Positions 3,020 to 56,448 of a DNA stretch of 64,000 nt are shown here, piece by piece. Every line of letters starts with the position of its first letter. The first letter of the stretch is position 1. Under the pieces are notes generated by a model. It searched no databases and was not told where the DNA came from. It worked only from the letters and a program-made list of their open reading frames with translations. This stretch comes from Heptranchias perlo (lineage: Eukaryota), in NCBI RefSeq assembly GCF_035084215.1, contig NC_090346.1, positions 31,062,001 through 31,126,000 on the forward strand, written 5' to 3'. The position numbers were made by a program, and so were the translations under genes.

Positions 3020-3387
3020 TCGCATCCAAATGACGTCATCAGGACCCGACTGCAATTTCAACTTGGCGGCCTGATTGGGAAGCCACACTGGATTTGCCGC
3101 CAGGCCAACATAGTGAGAAAAGGGATCAGAAGAGGCCCAAAAAAGTATGTTTTTTAAACTTCTCTTTATTTTTCTGTGAGGCCATGAGGATTGCAGAACC
3201 CCTGCGGGACAGCCTGGTAGCCAATGCTGACACCTGGTCTTGGTGGGCGACCGCTTCCTACCGGCAGGATTTAAATGAGGCCCAGGAGTTAAAATACCCT
3301 GGGCCTCAATTGTGGATCAGCGGGTGAGTTTCTAATTCACACCCCTGCCCATCCACCCAAAACTGGCCCGGAGTTAAAATCAGGACC
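3020..3387. mobile_element. End of a Harbinger-like non-autonomous element
   Basis: Ends in GAGTTAAAATCAGGACC (TIR-like); 3025-3085 is the reverse-complement homolog of about 6437-6497. Confidence 0.5.
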
Positions 3388-4180
3388 ATTATATTCTTAT
3401 TTTCTTACAGCAATAGCTCTACCAGTTAGTCTGAACAATGTTAATGGGGAAAATTTCAGCCTACTGTTCATCAGAGATATTTATCAGAAATACATATATT
3501 AGCATGCATAAACTGTCAATAATCATTCAAGATGGCAATGCAATGTTTTGTTTCTTTGTGGGGTTTCTATGCCAAATAAATAGATGTGCCAGAGAAATTC
3601 CAAGGGTTAAGAATTGCACAACAAATCTATGTAGGCACATGACAGTCATTGACTCTGTGTGAGTCACAGAAAAAATGGCCCTGGACTAATGTTTGCAATA
3701 GCTTCACATGGTGTAGAGTTTTAAATGGAGATAGTTGGTTGTGCAATGGTAAAAGAACATATATAAGCACTGCCTCTTAAATGATATTTAAGAATTTCTG
3801 GCTACATTTTTAAATATTAGTGTGTGTCACAATTTGCTGTATTCTGCTAAAAACTATTCCCACATTGCTACTATCGTTATTATCATCTCAGTTATGTCAT
3901 GCTAATCCTACTATGTTAACAATGATACAAGGAAACCGGGTGGCAGACTGGGAGTGAATCTAAGGCAGTAATTCACTCAACAGACGAACTGACATTCATA
4001 AACTGCTTGAACTTCACTCAGTTGTTTATGAGGGCATCAGAACAACTCAATCAAATTGTTGCCTTCAGCTCCCTGCCAGACATCCATTATTCTATGTATC
4101 TTGCTGAAAATAATACAAATTATTTTGGTCTGACTGAGTTGGTGTTATTATGGAACTACTTTGAGGCACTTTGCAGTTGA

Positions 4181-5884
4181 ATCGGTATTTACGGTTGAGA
4201 AAGGCATGGATGTTAGGGAACTTGGGGAAATAAATAGGGATGTCTTGAGGAGTGTACATATTATAGGGAGGGAGGTGCTGGAAGTCTTAACGCGCATCAA
4301 GGTAGATAAATCTCCGGGACCTGATGAAATGTATCCCAGGACGTTATGGAAGGTTAGGGAGGAAATTGCGGGTCCCCTAGCAGAGATATTTGAATCATCG
4401 ACAGCTACAGGTGAGGTGCCTGAAGATTGGAGGGTAGCAAATGTTGTGCCTTTGTTTAAGAAGGATGGCAGGGAAAAGCCTGGGAACTACAGACCGGTGA
4501 GCCTGACATCTGTAGTGGGTAAGTTGTTAGAGGGTATTCTGAGAGACAGGATCTACAGGCATTTGGAGAGGCAGGGACTGATTAGGAACAGTCAGCATGG
4601 TTTTGTGAGAGGAAAATCATGTCTCACAAATTTGATTGAGTTTTTTGAAGGGGTAACCAAGAAGATAGATGAGGGCTGTGCAGTAGACGTGGTCTACATG
4701 GACTTTAGCAAAGCATTTGACAAGGTACCGCATGGTAGGTAGTTACATAAGGTTAGATCTCACGGGATCCAAGGTGAGGTAGCCAATTGAATACAAAATT
4801 GGATTGACGGCAGAAGACAGAGGGTGGTTGTAGAGGGTTGTTTTTCAAACTGGAGGCCTGTGACCAGCGGTGTGCCTCAGGGATCGGTGCTGGGTCCACT
4901 GTTATTTGTTATTTATATTAATGATTTGGATGAGAATTTAGGAGGCATGGTTAGTAAATTTGCAGATGACACCAAGATTGGTGGCATTGTGGACAGTGAA
5001 GAAGGTTATCTAGGATTGCAACGGGATCTTGATAAATTGGGCCAGTGGGCCGATGAATGGCAGATGGAGTTTAATTTAGATAAATGTGAGGTGATGCATT
5101 TTGGTAGATCGAATCGGGCCAGGACCTACTCCGTTAATGGTAGGGCGTTGGGGTGAGTTATAGAACAAAGAGATCTAGGAGTACAGATTCATAGCTCCTT
5201 GAAAGTGGAGTCACAGGTGGATAGGGTGGTGAAGAAGGCATTCAGCATGCTTGGTTTCATTGGTCAGAACATTGAATACAGGAGTTGGGATGTCTTGTTG
5301 AAGTTGTACAAGACATTAGTAAGGCCACACTTGGAATACTGTGTACAGTTCTGGTCACCCTATTATAGAAAGGATATTATTAAACTAGAAAGAGCGCAGA
5401 AAAGATTTACTAGGATGCTACCGGGACTTGATGGTTTGACTTATAGGGAGAGGTTGGATAGACTGAGACTTTTTTCCCTGGAGAGTAGGAGGTTTAGGGG
5501 TGATCTTATAGAAGTCTATAAAATAATGAGGGGCATAGATAAGGTAGATAGTCAAAATCTTTTCCCAAAGGTAGGGGAGTCTATAACGAGGGGGCATAGA
5601 TTTAAGGTGAGAGGGGAGAGATACAAAAGGGTCCAGAGGGGCAATTTTTTCACTCAAAGGGTGGTGAGTGTCTGGAACGAGCTGCCAGAGGCAGTAGTAG
5701 AGGCGGGTACAATTTTGTCTTTTAAAAAGCATTTGGACAGTTACATGGGTAAGATGGGTATTGAGGGATATGGGCCAAGTGCAGGCAATTGGGACTAGCT
5801 TAGTGGTATAAACTGGGCTACATGGACATGTTGAGCCGAAGGGCCTGTTTCTATGTTGTAAACTTCTATGATTCTATTCTATGA
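4181..5884 (+). mobile_element. Young 5'-truncated CR1 LINE (ORF2 RT region and 3' tail) in the GPR139 intron
   Basis: KSPGPD, NYRPVSLTS, QHGF, DFSKAFDKV, PQGSVLGP and KFADD motifs; in-frame stops at 4740, 4788 and 5154; (ATTCTATG)-type tail. Confidence 0.95.
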
Positions 5885-6685: not shown

Positions 6686-8062
6686 CTCCCCCCAAAGTTT
6701 TGTGTCAATGTGAAATTGTTATGTATTGTCACCATGACAACAGTTTGGACTATTTTAAGCCTGTTGCTACAAAAATGTTATCTGCTCTGCCCACCCCTAT
6801 TCTCCAATGTAAGTACTCATCATTTTTAAGAGGCACTTACATTGAAAGGTCATTTGGTTTGTGACCCAAAGGAAATGATTTGATGCACATTTCTGCCATT
6901 ATAATCGTCAGTGATAAATAATATATAGTTTTCCTGGCCAAACAGCTTGAGTTTTGATCAAGTCCTGAAAGGTCAGTCCATCAGACCAAACAACTTCAAA
7001 AAGTGGCCAAAAGCTAATCAATAATTCCATGTTGCAGTTAATGCTTCTCAGTTTTCATAAGTACTGCTCTGCTGACATTCTTAGGATTTTGACAAGCTTC
7101 TTAGTGTCTTGTCAACGTACCTGAAAGAAAGACTGGCTGACAGAAAGATTTTTGTGGCTTCTGCTTGAAGTTCCTATCAATGCTCAAGACGCTCATCACC
7201 ATGAAATATCCCTTCCAAAGTAGGTTTAGACACAAGGCCTCAAATTGCTTGGCATTTCTGAAACATTCCCACTGCAACCCTGGCAGAAGTGTGGCGGAAA
7301 GGCATGGGTCTCGGCCGACACTGGGAGTTCCTGCTCGGCCTTGTAAGGGTGGGAGCTTTCTCAGGTCGGTTCGGACTGTCAGACACCCGAAGGAAGGTTG
7401 GAGGCTGTTACTCTTAGTGATGTGAGGTGTACCCACCACCAGAAGGACGCAAGTGGGACCCACTGGAAGGGTCCAAGCCAGGGAAGTAGCTAGACCCACA
7501 AAGTTTAGCAGAATTTTTAAAAAATTATTATTGACACCCTTACCAATTGTTTCTTGGGGGGTGGGGGGCGAGTGAGACCAGGAATTCCCCCACAGAATAG
7601 CAGCAGCATTGGGCTGGCGAGCACCCAAGGTGTGCCTGTAGTGGTGCAGGTATCCACAGGGGCCATTCCAGTGAGGTGCCCTCCTACTGACCTGGTGGGG
7701 TCAACACTGCAGGGCACTTGTAGTTACGATCCTGGCATCACTGCCAGGATTGCAGCTATGCAATTTCAGGGCACTTTTTTAAAAATAAAAGGACACCAAA
7801 AGGACCAAGATTGTTGCCTGCTTTATTTATCTCAAGGAAAAGATCAAAAAGTACGTTATTTTCTGATGTAGCAACACATAATTAAAAATTATGTGAAGGA
7901 GTGACTTGAGAGAAAATAGAAAATGCATTGCCTGAAATCAATTGAGAGATATCTTAGCTTTTCTTTAGGTAAATAAAGCAACTGCAATCAACCCAAAAGT
8001 TTAAAATGACGAATTGCCTTGTAATACATGAATGTCTGAATAAACTTTTCTTTCTTTCGCAG

Positions 8063-8997
8063 CCAACATACTCACGGTAATCATCCTTTCTCGGTTGGTG
8101 GCTCGGAGACAAAAGTCCTCCTACAATTATCTCCTGGCACTAGCTGCTGCAGATATACTGGTCCTTTTCTTCATTGTATTTCTTGATTTTCTGCTTGAAG
8201 ACTTCATTCTAGGCCGACAGCTGCCTCAAGTACTGGACAAAATAATTGGAGTCCTAGAATTCTCTTCCAATCACACATCTATTTGGATAACTGTTCCTTT
8301 AACCATTGACAGATACATTGCTGTATGTCACCCACTTAAGTACCATACAGTGTCCTATCCCGCACGTACTCGGAAAGTCATAATGAGTGTGTATGTCACT
8401 TGTTTCTTGACCAGCTTACCATACTACTGGTGGCCCAACATCTGGAGTGAAAACTATACAAGTACTTCCATGCATCAAATCCTGATCTGGGTCCACTGCT
8501 TTACTGTATATTTGGTTCCATGTTCAATTTTCTTCGTTCTGAATTCAATTATTATTCACAAACTTAAAAGGAAAAGTAACTTTCGCATGAGGGGATACTC
8601 CACAGGGAAGACAACAGCTATTTTGCTCACTATTACGACCATATTTGCAATACTCTGGGCACCAAGAATGGTGATGATTCTCTACCACCTCTACGTATCA
8701 CCTATAAATAATGGTTGGTTAGTGCACATAGTGTCAGACATAGCCAACATGCTTGCTTTGCTGAACACAGCCATCAATTTCTTCCTTTATTGTTTTATCA
8801 GTAAACGTTTCCGCACAATGGCAGCTGGGACACTGAAGGCCTTCTTTAAATGTCAGAAACAGCCGGTGCAATTTTATACAAACCACAACTTCTCAATCAC
8901 CAGCAGTCCATGGATCTCCCCTGCCAACTCCCATTGCATCAAGATGCTTGTGTACCAATATGATAAGGACGGAAAACCTCTGAAGATATCACCATGA
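8063..8997 (+). CDS. GPR139: G protein-coupled receptor 139, terminal coding exon (end of TM1 to C-terminus); exon 1 lies upstream, outside the window
   Basis: Polypyrimidine tract and AG acceptor (ttttctttctttcgcag, AG at 8061-8062), phase-1 junction giving (A)[36 protein letters not shown] motif, WAPR in TM6, NFFLY in TM7, C-terminus [44 protein letters not shown] at 8995-8997. Matches the human GPR139 sequence as I recall it almost residue for residue. Confidence 0.97.
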
Positions 8998-19160: not shown

Positions 19161-19809
19161 GCTTCATTAATATATTAATGCTGTATGAAAATTGAAAACA
19201 AAAGGCACTTTCTGGAAACCAGATGCACCTGGCCTTCTCCAGTCTTAGTTTTATAATCGTACAAAGCCTAAAATATTAACTTATCTATACACGCAGCCAA
19301 TTCTGCCTCTATATGTCTATATACAATAAAATTACCATGGCATTTGTCACAAGCTGTTTCTTCTCTTGTTTCTTTAAATAAAACCAGGAATGAATGGAAA
19401 AGAAAGCAGGTGAGAAGAATTACATTTTATTTATTATTTTCAAGTTGTTTAAACTTTTTTTCTGATTTAGAATTAATATCCTGACATCTGAGTATACTTA
19501 TTAGAGTACACTTATTACGGTAATATTAGTTTAGTTTCAATACTCCAGAGCATTAGCTAAAAAAAATTTTAAAGGAAGGCTAGAATTTCTTCAAAGTACC
19601 AGCAGTCTAAGTGTTGACATATTACTATTTGAAAATGAAGACATTAAATCAGCATTCAGTTGAAATTATTCAAATTTACTGCCTGAATTACTGGAAATAA
19701 ACTACTTAACCTATGCAAATTGCAGGTAACTTTTCCCCCCACTGCACAATAGTGGTAATTGTAAACAATTTTACAACACCAAGTTATAGTCCAGCAATTT
19801 TATTTTAAA

Positions 19810-19848
19810 TTCACAAGCTTTCGGAGGCTTCCTCCTTCGTCAGGTGAA
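19810..19848 (-). ncRNA. Minimal type I hammerhead ribozyme motif (mirror copy)
   Basis: Exact reverse complement of 19878-19916. Confidence 0.75.
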
Positions 19849-19877
19849 CGATGTGAAAATGTGATATTTTCACATCG

Positions 19878-19916
19878 TTCACCTGACGAAGGAGGAAGCC
19901 TCCGAAAGCTTGTGAA
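19878..19916 (+). ncRNA. Minimal type I hammerhead ribozyme motif
   Basis: TTCAC-CTGACGA-A-GGAGG-AAG-CCTCC-GAAA-GCTT-GTGAA: helix I TTCAC/GTGAA, core CUGANGA, helix II GGAGG/CCTCC, GAAA, palindromic AAGCTT in place of helix III. Confidence 0.75.
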
Positions 19917-20289
19917 TTTAAAATAAAATTGCTGGACTATAACTTGGTGTTGTAAAATTGTTTACAATTGTCAACCCCAGTCCATCACCGGCATCTCCAC
20001 ATCAATAGTGGTAAACAGAGATAATCAGTGAAAAATAGCAGCCAATGTAGAATCACTGCACAAACACAGCTTTTTTTTAAAAGAGCGGGGGAACAGATTT
20101 TATTAAATGGTTGTATTTGTTCACAGAAACAAACAAAAAAAAGCAAATAGTTTAGGGATATAGGAAAACATAGAAAGCTGGACATTGTGGATGGTGGGCT
20201 TATCCACTTGCACATTGTAGTTTGATTTGAAATTAATTTTCAAATTTACAAATTGTGCCGTAATATTTTTTAAAGGATTCAAATCACAA

Positions 20290-21874: not shown

Positions 21875-24241
21875 ACATAGGAACAGGAGTAGGCCATTTA
21901 GCCCCTCGCGCCTGCTCCACCATTTGATAAGATCATGGTTGATCTGTGATCTAACTCCATATACCTGCCTTTGGCCCATATCCCTTAATACCTTTGGTTG
22001 CCAAAAAGCTATCTATCTCAGATTTAAATTTAGCAATTGAGCTAGTATCAATTGCCATTTGCGGAAGACAGTTCCAAATCTCTACAACCCTTGGTGTGTA
22101 GAAATGTTTTCTAATCTCGCTCCTGAAAGGTCTGGCTCTAATTTTTAGACTGTGTCCCCTACTCCTAGAATCCCCAACCAGCAGAAATAGTTTCTCTCTA
22201 TCCACCCTATCTGTTCCCCTTAATATCTTATAAACTTCGATCAGATCACCCCTTAACCTTCGAAACTCCAGAGAATACAACCCCAATTTGTGTAATCTCT
22301 CCTCGTAACTTAACCCTTGAAGTCCGGGTATCAGTAAACCTACGCTGCACTCCCTCCAAAGCCAATTTGTCCTTCTGAAGGTGTGGTGCCCAGAACTGCT
22401 CACAGTACTCCAGGTGCGGTCTAACCAGGGTTTTGTATAGCTGCAGCATAACCTCTGCCCCCTTGTACTCTAGTCCTCTAGATATAAAGGCCAACATTCC
22501 ATTTGCCTTCTTGATTATTTTCTGCACCTGTTCATGACACTTCAATGATCTATGTACCTGAACCCCTAAGTCCCTTTGGACATCCACTGTTTTTAACTTT
22601 TTACCATTTAGAAAGTACCCTGTTCTATCCTTTTTTGATCCAAAGTGGATGACCTCACATTTGTCTACATTGAATTCAATTTGCCACAGCTTTGCCCATT
22701 CACCTAATCTATCAATATCGCTTTGTAATTTTATGTTTTCATCTACACTGCTTACAATGCCACCAATCTTTGTGTCATCGGCAAACTTAGATATGAGACT
22801 TTCTAGGCCTTCATCGTTAATAAATATTGTGAATAATTGAGGCCCCAAGACAGATCCCTGCGGGACTCCACTAGTCACATCCTGCCAATGTGAGTACCTA
22901 CCCATTATCCCTACTCTCTGTCGCCTTTCGCTCAGCCAACTTCCTAACCAAGTCCGTACTTTTCCCTCGATTCCATGGGCTTCTATCTTAGCTAACAGTC
23001 TCTTATGTGGGACCTTATCAAATGCCTTCTGGAAGTCCATATAAATAACATCCATTGACATTCCCCTGTCCACTACTTTAGTCACCTCTTCAAAAAATTC
23101 AATCAGGTTTGTCAGGCATGATCTACCTTTCACAAATCCATGCTGGCTCTCTCTGATTAACTGAAAATTCTCGAGGTGTTCAGTCACCCTATCCTTAATT
23201 ATAGACTCCAGCATTTTCCCCACAACAGATGTTAGGCTAACTGGTCTATAATCCCCTGGTTTCCCTCTCTCTTCTTTCTTAAAAAGCGAAGTGACATGTG
23301 CAATTTTCCAATCCAGAGGGACAGTTCCTGAATCTAGAGAACTTTGAAAGATTATAGTTAGGGCATCTGCAATGTGTTCACCTACTTCCTTTAAAACCCT
23401 GGGATGGAAACCATCTGGTCCTGGGGATTTGTCACTCTTTAGTGCTATTATTTTCTTCATTACTGTTGCTTTACTTATGTTAATTTTATCGAGTCCCTGT
23501 CCCCGATTCAATATAAGTTTTCTTGGGATTTCCGGCATGCTATCCTCTTTTTCGACTGTAAATACTGACGCAAAGTAATTGTTCAACATGTCCGCCATTT
23601 CCCCATTGTCAATGACAATATCCCCACTTTCAGTTTTTAATGGGCCAACACTGCTCCTGACCACCCTCTTTTTCCTAATATAACTATAAAAGTTCTTCAT
23701 ATTGGTTTTGATATCCCTTGCGACTTTCTTTTCATACTCTCTTTCTGTAGCTCTTACTATCTGTTTTGTGACCCTTTGTTGATCTTTGTATCTTTCCCAT
23801 TCGCCAGGATCTGTGCCATTTTTTGCCTTTTTGTATGCCCTTTCCTTATGTCTTATACTGTCCCTTACCTCTTTAGTTGTCCATGGCTGTTTTTTTTTGG
23901 CAAGTAGAGTTCTTGCCCCTCAAGGGTATAAACCGATTCTGTATCACGTTAAATGTTTCTTTAAACATTTCCCACTGATCATCAGTCGTTTTACCCATTA
24001 ACAGATTTGCCCAGTTTACTGTCGACAGTCTCTGTCTCATCCCATTGAAGTCAGCCTTGCCCAAGTCTAGAATCTTAGCAGCTGATTCACTTTTTTCCCT
24101 TTCAAACACTACATTGAACTCAATCATGTTACGATCACTATTGAATAGATGTTCACGCACAGTTAAGCCGTTAACTAAATCTGGTTCATTACTCATTACT
24201 AAATCTAGTATGGCTTGCCCCCTTGTTGCCTCTAGGACATA
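21875..24241 (-). mobile_element. CR1 LINE with a 484-aa open stretch of ORF2 (RT) plus the end of the endonuclease domain
   Basis: ORF 22246-23700 has KSPGPDG, YRPVSLTS, QHGF, DFQKAFDKV, PQGSVLGP and FADD; upstream ILDLV...SDRNMIEF; frameshifts on both sides. Confidence 0.95.
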
Positions 24242-25370
24242 GAAGACACTGACCACAACCTGGCAGCTGAGTGTCCAGATGTGCCATTTGTTCCATAAGC
24301 TATACAAGCTTGTCACAGGAGGCACTCTTACGCACTGTGTTCCCTGCTTTAGAGTATAATTATGGAATAGGATTTTAATATTTCACAATTTATTGTAAGA
24401 TTCTATTTCAAAAGCTCATTTTTGAAATGCGCCCATTTCAAAATGAAAGTTAACCCTGAAGCCACTGAGAGGTTCAGGGAAATTCCAGGTGATGGGCATT
24501 TAAAAAGAATTGCAGCTCACATACTGAAATTCAAACAAACATCAATATTACATTCCTCAAATGTTATCAGGACACTAATACTGCAATATTAGCCCAAAAC
24601 AACTGAAATAATTAAAATATAATTTTAAATAAAATAAATGATTTTCACACACTTGACTTCTGCTCCCCCATCTGAACTTTCTCTACTTGCTCTCCCTTCA
24701 ATGAAAAGGAAAATCGGGCGGGATGTATAATGGGCACCTGATCCGATATCGCCCGTCTCGCACCCCCACCGAAGTTGAATTCTAACCCCCTTGGCTTTTT
24801 GCATGACAAAAAGTAGCAATTAGCAGTACAAGTCAAGCAATTTTTAAATATAAATCTCACCCCTTTGATTCTCTATTCCCTTCAATATATGTTTTAATTC
24901 ATTTCATTAAAAGCTTCAAAACCACTGATACCAGATAGCTTATACTTTTTTTGGATTCTCTGAACAGCTGGGACCCAGTATGTTGTCTTTTTTTTCCAGG
25001 TGTTCAATATAAAGTTAAAGCTGTGACTTGTGACGATCATGATGCACTGCTGGAAACATGACACGTATGCAATAAAACCGACTATAAATGATAAAATTAC
25101 TCTGTGCTGCTTGAAGACTAATATCGCTGGAAAAACAGGTGCTGGGCTGCTGCTGTGCAGCACTGAGTAGGGTTGCAAAGGGAATGCTTTTAAGACTGAG
25201 GACTCTTGTGTGTGACTTAAAAGAAGTAGCTGAGCAATAATAGGGGATCTTACAAATGCGGTGGACATCTGGAGACTGTGAAAAATGCACTGCATTGTAG
25301 ACCATCACTTCCTTTACCAATCCATTCCTGGTTCTCCACCAACTTGCCTATCTCCCACCACCTCCTCAGA

Positions 25371-50911: not shown

Positions 50912-53216
50912 TAGAATCGTAGAATCATAGAAAGGGTATAGCATGGAAGGAGGCCAATCGGCCCATCGAGTCCGTGCTAGCTCTATGCACGAGCAATCCA
51001 GCTAGTCCCACTCCGTAGCCCTATCTCTATAGCCCTGCTAATTTTTTCTGTACTTATCCAGTTCATTTTTGAAAGCCATGATTGAATCTGCCTCCACCAC
51101 CGCCTCGGGCAGTGCATTCCAGATCATGACCACTTGCTGTATAAAAAGTTTTTCCTCGTGTCACCTTTGGTTCTTTTGCCAATCACCTTAAATCTATGTC
51201 CTCTGGTTCTTGACTCTTACGCCAATGGGAACAGTTTCTCTCTATCTACTCTGTCCAGACCCTTCATGATTTTGAATACCTCCATCAAATCTCCTCTCAA
51301 CCTTCTCTGTTCCAAGGAGAACAACCCCAGCTTCTCCAGTCAATCCACATAACTGAAGCCCCTCATCCCTGGAATCATTCTAGTAAATCGCTTCACATCT
51401 TTCCTAAAGTGAGGTGCCCAGAACTGGACACAATACTCCAGTTGTGGCCAAACCGTGTTTTATAAAGGTACATCATGACTTCCTTGCTTTTGTATTTATG
51501 CTTCTATTTATAAAGCCCAGGATCCCGTATGCTTTTTTAACCACTTTCTCAACCTGCCCTACCACCTTCAACGATTTGTGTACATATACCGCCAAATCCC
51601 TCTGTTCCTGTACCCCTTTCAGAATTGTGCCCTTTACTTTATATTGCCTCTCCTCATTCTTCCTATCGAAATGTATCACTTCGCATTTTTCTGCATTAAA
51701 TTTCATCTGCCATGTGTCCGCCCATTCCACCAGCCTGTCTATATCCTCTTGAAATCTATCACTATCCTTCTCACTGTTCACTACACTTCCAAGTTTTTTG
51801 TCGTTTGCAAATTTGGAAATTGTGCCCTTTACGCCCAAGTCCAAGTCATTAATGTATATCAAGAAAAGCAGTGGTCCTCGTACCAACCCCTGGGGAACAC
51901 CACTGTATACCTCCCTTCAGTCCAAAAAACAGCCGTTCACCACTACTCTCCGTTTCCTGTTACTTAGCCAATTCTGTATCCATTCTGCGACTGCCCCCTT
52001 TTCTTCCAAGGGCTTCAATCTTGATGACAAGCCTATTATGCGGCACTTTATCAAACACCTTTTGGAAGTCCATATATACCATATCAACTACATTGCCCTC
52101 ATCTACCCTCTCTGTTACCTCATCAAGAAACTCTACCAAGTTAGTTAAACAAGATTTACCTTTAACAAATCCTTCCTGGCTTTCAATAATCAATCCACAA
52201 TTGTCCAAGAAACTGCTATTCTGTCCCAGATTATCGTTTCTAAAAGTTTCTCCATCACTGAGGTTAAACTGACTGGCCTCTAGTTGCTGGGTTTATCCTT
52301 ACACCCTTTTTTGAACAAGGGTGTAACATTTGCAATTCTCCAGTCCGTTGGCACCACCCCCATATCTAAGGATGTTTGGAAGATTATGGCCAGTAGCTCC
52401 GCAATTTCCACCCTTACTTCCCTTAGCAACCTAGGCTGCATCCCACCTGGGTGACGTATATACTTTAAGTACTGCTTGCCTTTCTAGTACCTCCTCTTTA
52501 TCAAATTTTAGCCCATCCAGTATCTCAACTACATCTTCCTTTACTGAGACTCTGGCAGCATCTTCTTCTTTGATAAAGACAGATGCAAACTACTCATTTA
52601 GTACCTCAGCCACGCCCTCTGCCTCCATGAGTAGATCTCCTTTTTGGTCCCTAATCGGCCCCACCCCTCCTCTTACTACCCGTTTACTATTTATATGCCT
52701 ATAGAAGACTTTTGGATTCCCTTTCATATTGGTCGCCAGTCTCTCTCTCTTTGCCCCTCTTATTTCCTTTTTCACTTCCCCTCTGAACTTTCTATATTCA
52801 GCCTGGTTCTCACTTGTGTTATCAACCTGACATCCGTCATAAGCCCCTTTTTTCTGTTTCATCTTACTCTCTACCTCTTTTGTCATCCAGGAAGCTCTGG
52901 CTTTAGTTGCCCTACCTTTCTCCCTCGTGGGAATGTACCTAGACTGTACCTGAACCATCTCCTGCTTACAGGCCGACGATTTTTCAATTACAGTTTTGCC
53001 TGCCAATCTTTGATTCCAATTTACCAGGGCCCAATCTGATCTCATCCCACTAAAATTGGCTCTCCTCCAATTGAGTATTTTTACTTTTGAGTGGTCCGTG
53101 TCCTTTTCCATAGCTATTCTAAACCTTATGATACTATGATCACCGTTCCCTAAATGTTCCCCCACTGACACTTGCTCCACTTGGCCCACCTCATTCCCCA
53201 GAACCAAATCCAGCAT
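50912..53216 (-). mobile_element. CR1 LINE (end of EN, RT, tail), decayed
   Basis: LDLVLGNE, GDHSIIRF, GFVKGKSCLTNL and KFANDKK motifs; tagaatc tail. Confidence 0.93.
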
Positions 53217-54319
53217 CAGGTGACGCCACGACATCAGTGGAACCCCTCATTGCTATATCTAGAATTTAGTTAACACTCAAGTTTAAATTTTGCAGGTAAT
53301 AACTTATTTATTTAAGGTACCAAGGATGCAAAATGACTCAATTCTGAGGCCCATCAATGTATACGATTGAAAGCTACAAAATCCTAATACACCAAGCGCA
53401 GCGTATTTTATTATTTATTTCTATTGCAAACTAATCTTCTTAACCAATGCTAAATAAACATGTCTTTTCCATTGTACAATGGTCCAATTACTTCAACTCA
53501 TATGTTGGATACATTCCCAGGTGCACAGAGTAATATATTTGAAATCATTTTATCAGCTGTTGAATTCCAATTTCCTCTACGATGTACTGCTGGGTATAAT
53601 AAAACTGCAATGTCAATAACTATCTCCAAAGTTTGGGGCATCTGTATACAATTACATAGATCCTTAGGCAATTTCAAACGAGTCTGTTATAGCTACAAAT
53701 AATGGAAGTCTCTATAAGATCTACTGCAGAATGTGCCCCCTCATCTCTCTAGGGAGTACTTTTTTGAAATATGTTTTTAAATTGGCAGGTTGTTCATGGT
53801 AGAATTGCTATACTAATGATTTTGCTACCAACTGCAATTGAAGTATACTGCTCCTTAACTCTACCGAATGAAATTATTGAATGTGGTCTTCTTTCATGTT
53901 TTAAATTTTAAAAAACATGTAAACCTTGTGCATGAGACTGATCTTTAAGCCATGGCCACATATATTTTTGCAAAGGTACAATGATTTTCAATTACGAAAA
54001 AAGCAGCTTACTGTATCAGCAAAAAACAAACATTCATTGCCGTTTGTAAAGAAATCAAAAGGAATTCCTTCGTAGCTACACACAGAGCCCTTGGATAAAG
54101 ACTCGACTTATTCCAATGCGTATGTTTCAAGTTTAAAATTCAGCAATTTCACTGCACAAATCATCAAAAAAAAAGCAATTTTAATGGACGTGCATCCTGA
54201 AGAAGGACCCAAACATGATTAGGTAGCCGGATGGACTGAATGTCCTGTTTCATTTTACATTCTTAGGTAATCGTCCAATATTATAGCACAGAAGGAGATC
54301 ATTCGGCCCATCAATCTGT

Positions 54320-56448
54320 TAGGATCTGTTCAAAATGAACGGGTTGCACCTCAACAGAGCTGGGACCAATGTGCTCGCGGGGAGGTTAACATGTGATGTG
54401 GGGGAGAGTTTAAACTAATTTGGCGTGGGGATGGGCACCAGGATGAAACATTAGAGAGGAGAAACAAAGTGCACACAGGACTGGGAGGGACAATTAGCAC
54501 TAGAGTAAAGAATGGTTCAGAAATAGGAGGGATCAGACAGGGGGCAAATGCGAGGCAGTCTAAGATGAGTTTAGAGTGCATGTACATTAATGCACATAGC
54601 ATGGTAAATAAGGTTGGTGAGCTGCAGAGATTATGAGATGCTGGCAATAGCAGAGACCTAGCTCAATGAAGGGGAGGATTGAGTACTTAATATTCCTGCT
54701 ACAAGATATTCAGGAAAGATAGGGAAGGAGAGAAAGGAGGGGAGTGGCAGTATTGATCAAAGAAACTATTATAGCACTGGAAAAGGATGATGTATTTGAA
54801 GGATCAAAGACAGAATCTATTTGGTTAGAATTAAGAAACAATAGAGGAACTATTACACTACTGGGTGTATACTCCAGGCCAAATAGTGGGAAGGAGATAG
54901 AGGAGCAAATTTGCAGGCAAATTACAGAAAGATGCAAGAACTATAGAGTAGAGATAATGTGGGACTTCAATTATCCTAATATAGACTGGGACAGTAACAG
55001 TGTAAAGGGCAAAGAGGGGGAGGAATTCCTGAAATGTACACAAGAGAACTTTCTGGAACAGTGTGTTTCCAGCCCAATGACAAAGAAAGCAGTGCTGGAT
55101 CTAATTCTGGGGAATAAAGTGGGGCAGGTGAAGCATGTTTCAGTGGGGGAGCATTTGGGGAACTGTGTTCATATTATCATTGGGTTGAGAATAGTTATGG
55201 AAAAGGACAAGGAGCAATCAAATGTGAAAATATTTAACTGGAGAAGGGCTAATTTCAGTGAGTTAAAAAGGGATCTTGCCCCGGTGGATTGGAATCAAAA
55301 ATTGGAAGGCAAAACAGTAATTGAACAATGGGAGGCCTTCAAGAAGGAGTTGGTTCGGGTACAGAGTAGACACATCCTTACAAGGGGGAAATGAAAGGCA
55401 TCCAAAGCTAGAGCTCCCTGGATGACTAAAGATATAGAGATTAAAATGAGACAGAAAAAGGAGGCTTATGACAAATGTAAGGTTCATAATACAGTAGAGA
55501 TCCAGGCTGAATACAGAAAGTACAGAGAAGATCTAATAAAGGGAATGAGGGGCAAAGAGAGAGTATGAGACTAGATTAGCGGCCAACATAAAAGGGAACT
55601 CAAAAGTCTTTTATAAACATATAAATAGTAAAAGGGTAGTCAATGGAAGGGTGGGACCGATTAGGGACAAAAAAGGAGATCTTCTTGTGGAGGCAGAGGG
55701 TAAGGCTGAGGTACTAAATGAATACTTCACATCCGTCTTCACTAGAGAAGACGATGCTGCCAATGTATCAGTAAAGGAGGAGGTAGAAGCGATATTGGAT
55801 AGGATAAAAATAGACAAAGAGGAGATATTTAAAAGTCACCCGGTCCAGTTGGGATGCATCCTAGGTTACTGAGGGAAGTAAGGGTGGAAATTGCAGTGTC
55901 TCTGACCACAATCTTCCAATCCTCCTTAAATATGGGGATGATGCCGGAGAACTGGAACATTGCAAATGTTACACCCTTGTTCAAAAAAGGGTAGAGGGGT
56001 AAACCCGGTCAGTCAGCCTAAAGTCAGTGGTGGGGAAACTTTTAGAGACAATAATCCGGGACAAAATTAATTGGCACTTGGAAAATTATGGGCTAATAAA
56101 TGACAGTCAGCACTGATTTGTTAAAGAAAAATCGTGTTTGACTAACTTGATTGATTTCTTTGATGAAGTAACGGAGAGGGTTGAAGAGGGTAGAACGGTT
56201 GATGTGTATATGGACTTTCAAAAGGCATTTGATAAAGTACCACATAATAGATTTGTTAGCAAAATTAAAGCCCATGGAATTAAAGGGACAGTGGCAGCAT
56301 GGATACAAAATCGGCTAAGGGACAGAAAGCAGAGAGTAGTGGTGAACGGTTGTTTTTCAGACTGGAGGGAAGTATACAGTGGTGTTCCCCAGGGTCAGTA
56401 TTAGGACCACTGCTCTTATTGATATATATTAATGACCTGGACTTGGGA
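54320..56448 (+). mobile_element. CR1 LINE including the ORF1 C-terminus (SGNH esterase), APE endonuclease and start of RT; 3'-truncated
   Basis: DLFKMNGLHLNRAGTNVLAGR; GVAVLIK, ESIWLEL, WDFNYPNIDW, LDLILGN, DFQKAFDKV and PQG motifs. Confidence 0.92.

What the first reader, a model, noticed from the sequence alone, without database searches (positions are those of the whole stretch)
19747..20014. Perfect 104-bp fold-back Penelope-like insertion with a hammerhead ribozyme on each strand
Seen: arms 19757-19860 and 19866-19969 are exact reverse complements around a 5-nt spacer, followed by a 33-nt unpaired tail, all flanked by the 12-bp direct repeat CAATAGTGGTAA. Each arm has a full hammerhead core: TTCAC/GTGAA helix I, CUGACGA, GGAGG/CCUCC helix II, GAAA and palindromic AAGCUU, with predicted cleavage after U19911. 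Known: Penelope-like elements carry minimal type I hammerheads in their terminal repeats, thought to cleave as dimers, and often insert with an inverted partial repeat. Inference: no arm mismatches and an intact TSD imply a very recent insertion of a roughly 245-bp non-coding mobile ribozyme unit, possibly a retrozyme-like family mobilised by PLEs.
Basis: partly seen in the sequence, partly recalled or inferred. Interest (0 to 1): 0.8.

Follow-up and report, generated by a model that had tools for sequence, protein, structure and literature searches.

The report
Twin-primed Penelope retrotransposon fold-back scar
This 244-base hairpin is one of tens of thousands of dead fragments of an abundant shark retrotransposon (Penelope-like), not a mobile ribozyme of its own; such fragments likely form when both ends of a cut chromosome each copy the start of the transposon's RNA and the two copies are joined head to head.

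Summary
In detail: perfect 104-bp arms, a 33-nt tail, a 12-bp target duplication and a minimal type I hammerhead in each arm. The reading as a ~245-bp retrozyme-like unit is not supported: its central junction occurs once in the 3.25-Gb genome. The arm is the terminal repeat of a Neptune-type Penelope-like element (PLE) with intact 902-aa RT/GIY-YIG ORFs and 62,115 exact terminal 32-mers. Inverted short copy, one-sided tail and target duplication are described for PLEs, and perfect arms are common (37 of 81). What I did not find in print: (1) 72 of 77 classifiable fold-backs have the tail on exactly one arm, either arm may reach further 5', so neither is simply a copy of the other; (2) short arms end 29-30 nt downstream of the element's TATAAA in subfamilies whose TATA-hammerhead spacing differs by 7 nt. 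Best reading: both 3' ends of a 12-nt staggered cut prime reverse transcription at the two start sites, run off the uncleaved transcript's 5' end, and are joined. Element identity about 0.98; this mechanism about 0.6, untested at the bench.

The parts
19747..19758 (+). Left target-site duplication, 12 bp; last 2 nt (AA) are microhomology with the arm end
19759..19860 (-). Short arm: PLE terminal repeat from predicted transcription start (q1 = 19860) to the tail-less end (q102-104)
   Evidence: 99% to natural full copies L099/L100; end class S
19810..19848 (-). Minimal type I hammerhead, inverted copy; predicted cut after 19815
   Evidence: mirror of 19878-19916
19861..19865 (.). Junction insert GTGAT; 19859-19864 (ATGTGA) repeats 19851-19856, i.e. 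a locally templated insertion; junction unique in the genome
   Evidence: sequence; similar templated inserts at other junctions
19866..19969 (+). Long arm, paired part (q1-q104); 19866 is 29 nt downstream of the first T of TATAAA in full copies (predicted transcription start; TATA itself is absent here)
19878..19916 (+). Minimal type I hammerhead (helix I 5 bp, helix II 5 bp, 2-bp helix III with no loop); predicted cut after 19911; cleavage untested
   Evidence: PMC4209133
19970..20002 (+). PLE 'tail' (33-35 nt), ending just before the ORF start codon (ATG at q139-141 in full copies)
20003..20014 (+). Right target-site duplication, 12 bp; first 2 nt (CA) are microhomology with the element

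Best explanation
The feature is a one-off, promoterless fragment of an abundant Neptune-type Penelope-like retrotransposon, likely made when the element's nuclease cut the target with a 12-nt stagger and both free DNA ends primed reverse transcription, one at the tail end and one about 36 nt inside, each copy likely running off the 5' end of the uncleaved RNA before the two were joined head to head. Shown from sequence: parent family with intact ORFs, 12-bp duplication mode, tail on one arm only, arm ends tracking TATA+29/30, unique junction. Inferred: that TATA+29/30 is the transcription start; that both ends are primed independently; that joining is microhomology-mediated repair (polymerase theta-like inserts; recalled knowledge); whether one RNA or two serve as template (a minority of copies show two different source haplotypes). 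The hammerhead is a passenger: the template was copied through the cleavage site, and the copy is predicted to be unable to move again by itself. Full-length copies would need a read-through transcript from a tandem array, primed at the downstream repeat; promoter-started RNA would yield only these ~100-140 nt 'strong-stop'-like products.
For: Parent: the 137-nt arm+tail matches the terminal repeat of natural copies with a 902-aa ORF (16 such ORFs in 13 of 111 loci held; RVT_1 E 3e-10; DKG, YIDD, CX4CxxC, VVY..YIG; invariant C/H/R/E/N of the nuclease in 10 aligned sequences); tandem period 3081-3083. Abundance: 62,115 exact hits of a terminal 32-mer, 10,024 of the hammerhead 33-mer, 700 of the tail-ATG joint. 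Of 88 distinct fold-backs: 72 tail+short, 9 tail+shorter, 2 short+intermediate, 4 short+short, 1 tail+tail; 72/4/1 against 38/21/18 if ends were independent, p 2e-14. Duplications found in 83 of 88, 12 bp in 49, 12-14 bp in 77. The short arm reaches further 5' in 37 of 72, the tail arm in 23, equal in 12: in the 37, each arm holds sequence the other lacks. Arm 5' ends: subfamily A mode at TATA+29 (q1), C at TATA+30 (q8), B at +29 to +32. Genome-wide, A falls 6431 to 4287 (-33%) over q1 to q-2, then to 3886 (-9%) over the next 3 nt; C falls 7283 to 5912 (-19%) over q8 to q5, then to 5642 (-5%). 53 loci carry a loop-less palindrome joining q1 to q1 through AT; the 15 fetched have 15 different duplications and differing variants, and L184 has arms of two haplotypes. 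Junctions: 37 microhomology, 8 blunt, 36 with inserts of 81. In vitro, the anole Poseidon protein nicks and extends both strands, starts at two RNA sites that bound the tail, is modelled as a dimer, and uses uncleaved RNA (PMC11167929).
Against: No RNA 5'-end data: the start site rests on TATA spacing; the only mapped Penelope promoter I read (D. virilis) is TATA-less and internal (PMC2377424 passages). 3886 of 6431 A arms that reach q1 continue past q-5, many arms start at q3-q20, and some pivot upstream of the predicted start at self-complementary hexamers, so run-off explains a class, not all. The B pile lies at the limit of subfamily assignment, and 41 of 225 arms could not be assigned. 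Both arms share a hammerhead haplotype in 29 of 41 pairs against 8.8 by shuffling, which snap-back predicts equally well. The 37:23 excess is not significant (p 0.09); snap-back remains possible for 35 of 72. The in vitro work is on another clade (Poseidon), found no strand difference in start site and did not show coupling of the two ends. 57 distinct single-arm insertions exist (30 short, 25 tail, 2 other), so twin priming is not obligatory.
Confidence: 0.62

Rival explanations
1. Same parent element, but the inversion arises by self-priming: one cDNA (or an antisense template) folds back and copies itself, as proposed for rotifer Penelope; arm ends reflect ordinary truncation or RT stalling at the structured hammerhead.
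For: PMC3846280 discussion passage proposes self-priming from junction palindromes. Arms usually share a haplotype (29 of 41); microhomology at 37 of 81 junctions; tail arm is longer or equal inside in 35 of 72, including this copy. A hybrid (both ends primed, the longer cDNA folds back) fits most data.
Against: In 37 of 72 neither arm contains the other. Loop-less q1/q1 palindromes recur at 53 loci. 5 of 41 pairs and L184, L185 of 15 carry two recurrent haplotypes. Arm ends follow the TATA box, not the hammerhead, across subfamilies.
Confidence: 0.2
2. Both arms start at the tail, and the element's nuclease then removes the tail from one end while resolving the intermediate (the short end lies in an AATT/ATT motif).
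For: PMC8557442 says the tail most likely results from nuclease-mediated resolution; the anole nuclease prefers ATT; the short end is tight (q101-102 minimal end in 50 of 71). It explains the one-tail rule directly.
Against: The tail-less site is a bona fide RT start on RNA in vitro for the anole protein; short ends show 1-3 nt overlap with the duplication in 47 of 71, as the tail ends do in 40 of 71, as expected of priming; 30 single-arm copies end at the short site.
Confidence: 0.13
3. One reading: a ~245-bp non-autonomous ribozyme unit (retrozyme-like) that is itself transcribed, self-cleaves and is spread by PLE proteins.
For: Hammerhead helices are kept across subfamilies, with G-C to A-U and wobble changes; animal retrozymes derive from PLE repeats (bioRxiv 10.64898/2026.07.22.740005); some junctions recur; a true retrozyme-like 404-bp array of this family exists (L096).
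Against: Junction unique; not tandem; no TATA box and no ORF-start region (needed on the template in the anole system); hammerheads sequestered in the hairpin; recurrent junctions have different outer ends and variants.
Confidence: 0.04
4. Assembly or library fold-back artefact.
For: Perfect palindromes can be chimeras; no contig spans the whole insert, and the central junction is not among the rows shown.
Against: A chimera gives neither a 12-bp duplication nor a one-sided tail; 83 of 88 sibling fold-backs have their own duplication; short-read contigs of 4 runs (one sample) run from each flank 21 and 23 nt into the element, under the tool's 31-letter bridging standard.
Confidence: 0.01

Closest known systems
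Endonuclease-containing Penelope-like elements, Neptune clade (C-terminal GIY-YIG with CX2-5CxxC linker)
   Same: Single RT+GIY-YIG ORF, tandem copies forming pseudo-LTRs, inverted 5'-truncated copy, one-sided 30-40 bp tail, target duplication, hammerhead in the repeat (PMC8557442, PMC3846280, PMC4209133).
   Different: Family not named in anything I read; duplications of 12-14 bp against 8-10 bp in the rotifer examples; no microsatellite targeting seen; ORF starts after the tail, whereas in the anole element it starts inside the hammerhead; both arms here are reduced to the predicted 5' leader.
Poseidon of Anolis carolinensis (PAc), PMC11167929
   Same: Two RT start sites bounding the tail; AT-rich targets; copied template not cleaved by the hammerhead.
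   Different: Other clade (no CX2-5CxxC finger); that study did not report coupling of one start site to each target end or run-off at the transcription start in the parts I read.
Non-LTR retrozymes (PMC7229834; bioRxiv 10.64898/2026.07.22.740005)
   Same: Small, non-coding, type I hammerhead, PLE-derived, long target duplications.
   Different: Retrozymes are head-to-tail tandems yielding circular RNA; this is a head-to-head single event with a unique junction.
LINE-1 twin priming and retroviral minus-strand strong-stop DNA (recalled, not from a call)
   Same: Both target ends prime, giving an inversion inside one duplication; RT starts near the RNA 5' end and runs off.
   Different: In LINE-1 the two primed segments are different, non-overlapping parts of one RNA; here both arms copy the same ~100 nt from two fixed start sites.

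Membership tests
EN+ Penelope-like element (parent family) | Single ORF with RT and C-terminal GIY-YIG nuclease linked to this repeat | tested here: met
   902-aa ORFs between copies of the repeat; RVT_1 hit. Pfam's GIY-YIG model did not hit and PDB gave nothing; the nuclease rests on motifs and invariant residues shared with homologues that carry PF01541.
EN+ Penelope-like element (parent family) | DKG motif and CCHH motif within the nuclease | tested here: met
   DKG at 296; VVYLIRCRKGCPRAWYIG at 790 in L092 (second C is W in L099); H residues invariant
EN+ Penelope-like element (parent family) | Tandem/partial tandem pseudo-LTRs, inverted truncated copy, 30-40 bp one-sided tail, target duplication | tested here: met
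Neptune clade | CX2-5CxxC finger in the RT-nuclease linker (absent in Penelope/Poseidon) | tested here: met
   CHGNLCKTC at 753; criterion from PMC8557442. Shared with Nematis.
Neptune clade | RT phylogeny with Neptune rather than Nematis references | not tested
   No named reference sequences were in hand; only Neptune and Poseidon were reported in vertebrates
Penelope/Poseidon clade | No CX2-5CxxC finger | tested here: not met
   finger present
Minimal type I hammerhead of PLEs | Conserved core, extra nucleotide after A9, G10.1-C11.1 pair, palindromic rudimentary helix III, helices I and II with covariation | tested here: met
   230 arms selected by a core pattern: helix II pair 5 GC 166, AT 30, GT 23, AC 11; pair 1 GC 223. 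Copies are related, so counts are not independent; no Rfam hit.
Minimal type I hammerhead of PLEs | Self-cleavage (dimeric or protein-assisted) | not testable with these tools
   Active fold is 2.3 kcal/mol above the minimum for q1-60; helix I probability 0.37 in the single arm, 0.0 in the fold-back
Non-LTR retrozyme | At least two head-to-tail units each with a hammerhead | tested here: not met
   head-to-head arms
Non-LTR retrozyme | The unit is amplified as such | tested here: not met
   junction 31-mer: 1 hit, the window itself
Non-LTR retrozyme | Abundant linear and circular unit-length RNA | not testable with these tools
   only contigs of runs guessed to be RNA were available

The most novel reading that the evidence does not exclude
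Penelope-like elements integrate by twin target-primed reverse transcription: a 12-nt staggered cut, one target end primed at the tail site and the other about 36 nt inside, and promoter-started transcripts give only strong-stop-like copies of the 5' leader. This would explain in one stroke the head-to-head inversions, the one-sided tail, the flood of solo hammerhead fragments in fish and amphibian genomes, and why only tandem copies are productive; the fragment ends would also map the element's transcription start from DNA alone.
Probability: 0.5. Interest if true: 0.7.

Novelty: new member of a known kind. Interest (0 to 1): 0.42.

Why it matters
The single copy is ordinary debris. The family is useful: how PLE tandem/inverted structures and tails form is called unresolved in PMC8557442 and PMC3846280, and this genome holds tens of thousands of young insertions plus intact, near-identical 902-aa ORFs of the Neptune type, for which my searches found no biochemical study. 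The one-tail rule, the 12-bp stagger and the TATA-tracking arm ends give sharp predictions for a reconstituted reaction. It also warns that genome scans for hammerheads in such species mostly count passengers that were copied uncleaved.

Tried and rejected
DNA search of the genome with the 137-nt arm returned 0 candidates because common words are skipped; exact patterns were used instead. Rfam: no hammerhead model matched; miRNA hits reflect the hairpin only. No PLE ORF and no second copy in the window (tblastn empty; blastn). Idea that arms end at the hammerhead cut (q47): only 7 of 219 arm ends fall at q45-55 against 138 at q-10 to q20 (sample partly selected for the hammerhead; in the unselected first 4.9 Mb, 33 of 54 fold-back arm ends at q-10 to q20 and 4 at q49-54), so at most a minor class. 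Idea that single-arm copies hide a tiny primed tail or short end at the far junction: not seen in 57. Intron 3' splice site as cause of the q1 edge: no AG precedes q1 (A) or q8 (C), no upstream exon attached. Cap-templated extra G: not systematic in 19 arms starting q0-q2. Initial guess of Poseidon clade: rejected by the linker finger. Polymorphism: no empty-site joint among the 15 joints shown of 213 in four DNA runs of one sample; inconclusive. Expression: no RNA holder listed on record; four runs guessed to be RNA hold the whole element as contigs, not used as evidence. Earlier scan notes: nothing. Rows dropped: 2 duplicated fold-backs before the count of 88; one further duplicate and one mis-parsed tail remain among the 4 short+short rows; edge-cut loci were skipped; 7 multi-part fold-backs were left out of the 81.

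Full report
Coordinates: q1 = window 19866, counting along the long arm. Observation. All stated features are present. The unambiguous insert is 19759-20002; 2 nt at each end belong both to the element and to the 12-bp duplication. The 5-nt spacer is mostly a local repeat: ATGTGA at 19859-19864 copies 19851-19856. Rfam has no hammerhead match among 20 hits, but the minimal type I motif of PMC4209133 is met by inspection, and helix changes among subfamilies keep pairing.

Parent element. The window lies in a 3.25-Gb genome. The hammerhead 33-mer has 10,024 exact hits, a terminal 32-mer 62,115, the tail-to-ATG joint 700; reversed-pattern controls gave 0. Loci fetched at tail-ATG hits hold intact 902-aa ORFs, some in tandems of period 3081-3083. 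The protein has RVT_1, DKG, YIDD, a CX4CxxC finger and a VVY..YIG nuclease with CCHH-type residues. By the criteria in PMC8557442 the finger excludes Penelope/Poseidon and points to Neptune (Nematis not excluded by a tree). Best protein hits are from sharks, 93-96% (Heptranchias) and 80-84% (Scyliorhinus, Mustelus), of 750 hits, so the host is a shark or close kin. At least three subfamilies (A, B, C; my labels) differ between the TATA box and the hammerhead; the window copy is A and identical over all 137 nt to 10 arms in my sample. No ORF remnant lies in the window.

Is the 244-bp unit itself a family? No. Its junction 31-mer occurs once. I fetched the places of the first 100 hammerhead hits (29.5 Mb of contig C1), the first 100 terminal 32-mer hits (4.9 Mb; 30 of them with 1.5-kb flanks only) and 20 regions at tail-ATG hits, giving 176 insertion groups in 146 blocks. 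In the unselected 4.9 Mb: 30 fold-backs, 25 single arms, 4 other, 4 edge-cut of 63. Arm lengths run from under 50 nt to full length. 37 of 81 simple fold-backs have perfect arms. The window copy is a typical member.

Rule 1: one tail per insertion. Of 88 distinct fold-backs (window copy included), 72 have one arm ending at the tail (mostly q136-144) and one at the short end (mostly q99-105); 9 tail plus a shorter arm; 2 short plus intermediate; 4 short/short (one mis-parsed, two the same duplicated insertion); 1 tail/tail, which lacks a duplication and joins two subfamilies. Independence would give 38/21/18 against 72/4/1 (p 2e-14). Duplications: 83 of 88, 49 of 12 bp, 17 of 13, 11 of 14. With head-to-head geometry each outer end is a cDNA start, so the simplest reading is that both 3' ends of a 12-nt staggered cut primed synthesis. 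The short arm reaches further 5' in 37 of 72 cases; there each arm has sequence the other lacks, which fold-back of one cDNA cannot give. Arms mostly share a haplotype (29 of 41; shuffles 8.8, max 18), but 5 of 41 pair two recurrent haplotypes, as do L184 and L185 among 15 further loci. One or two RNA templates therefore stays open.

Rule 2: short arms end at TATA+29/30. Arms that do not extend through the TATA box pile at offset 29-30 from the first T of TATAAA in A (18 of 73, the mode), 30 in C (8 of 17) and 29-32 in B (17 of 26, at the limit of assignment), although the TATA-hammerhead distance differs by 7 nt. Whole-genome counts agree: A 6431, 4287, 3886 for starts q1, q-2, q-5; C 7283, 5912, 5642 for q8, q5, q2. 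That spacing, and the pyrimidine-A-T context at q0-q2 in A, fit a polymerase II start (established knowledge; not mapped here). Both window arms end at q1/q0. 53 loci join q1 to q1 through a shared AT with no loop; the 15 fetched all have different duplications and 13 show the tail/short pattern, so they are recurrent events. Limits: about 60% of A arms reaching q1 continue upstream (read-through templates), many start at q3-q20 (trimming at the joint, inferred), and some pivot upstream at self-complementary hexamers.

Mechanism. Inferred steps: promoter-started RNA runs q1, hammerhead (q13-51), stem-loop with the two start sites (fold), ATG at q139. The protein cuts with a 12-nt stagger; each end anneals through 1-3 nt and is extended; both cDNAs run off about 100-140 nt later; they are joined by microhomology or short templated inserts (37 microhomology, 8 blunt, 24 inserts of 1-15 nt, 12 longer, of 81). 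48 of the 65 short fold-backs have both arms starting at or before q20, so the template was not cut at q46/47. This matches the anole Poseidon in vitro data (both strands nicked and extended, two start sites bounding the tail, uncleaved RNA as substrate, protein-assisted ribozyme), which come from another clade and did not test coupling. The window copy has no TATA box or ORF start, and any read-through RNA would be a 104-bp hairpin with both ribozymes locked.

What is known. Inverted truncated copy, one-sided tail and duplication: PMC3846280 and PMC8557442 (passages), PMC8969392 (passages). Paired minimal hammerheads on opposite strands 100-700 bp apart, attributed to truncated PLEs: PMC4209133 (parts 1-2 of 4 read). 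Retrozymes: PMC7229834 (passages), bioRxiv 10.64898/2026.07.22.740005 (parts 1-3 of 5; supplements closed). PMC11167929: parts 1-2 of 4; supplements 1-2 gave only figure labels, and its Fig. S2 on genomic ends may bear on rule 2. PMC2377424: passages. PMC12602865: term search, no hits. PMC10587355: abstract. Searches found no paper proposing twin priming or start-site run-off for PLEs; subscription papers (Arkhipova 2006, Evgen'ev and Arkhipova 2005, Pyatkov 2004) and Repbase/Dfam notes were not seen and may hold part of it.

Verdict. Interest 0.42, carried by the family-level rules rather than by this copy; most novel reading probability 0.5, interest 0.7 if true.

Noticed in passing
L096:1357-5183 (G000:C2:21271500-21278000): About 9.5 head-to-tail copies of a 404-bp unit (q-137 to q266, subfamily C: TATA, hammerhead, tail, ORF start), 0-1 mismatches among 8 units compared, inside one 13-bp duplication and ending at the tail site: a newborn retrozyme-like array, as from a circular template.
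   Followed up: partly
window 8044-8997 (+): Coding exon of a GPR139 orthologue (E 3e-164 to PDB GPR139 chains); the insertion lies 10.7 kb downstream.
   Followed up: partly
window 4134-5798, 21951-24382, 32405-34180, 52590-55394: Several LINE reverse-transcriptase fragments (CR1-like by recalled motifs), the longest open frame 557 aa at 22246-23919 (-).
   Followed up: no
L120, L155, L102, L066: The same 12-bp target (GCAGTTATATAA, or shifted by one base) was duplicated at four independent insertions, probably a preferred site inside another abundant repeat.
   Followed up: no
L092-L093, L094, L095: Tandem arrays of intact 902-aa copies at 99-100% identity, candidate source elements.
   Followed up: partly
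L059 (G000:C1:18246600-18251700): The only tail/tail fold-back: 1.4-kb arms from two subfamilies, no duplication; likely a rearrangement between two insertions.
   Followed up: partly
L130, L140, L128, L113, L120: A few arms start at q49-54, just past the predicted hammerhead cut (q46/47): possibly a minor class copied from cleaved RNA.
   Followed up: partly
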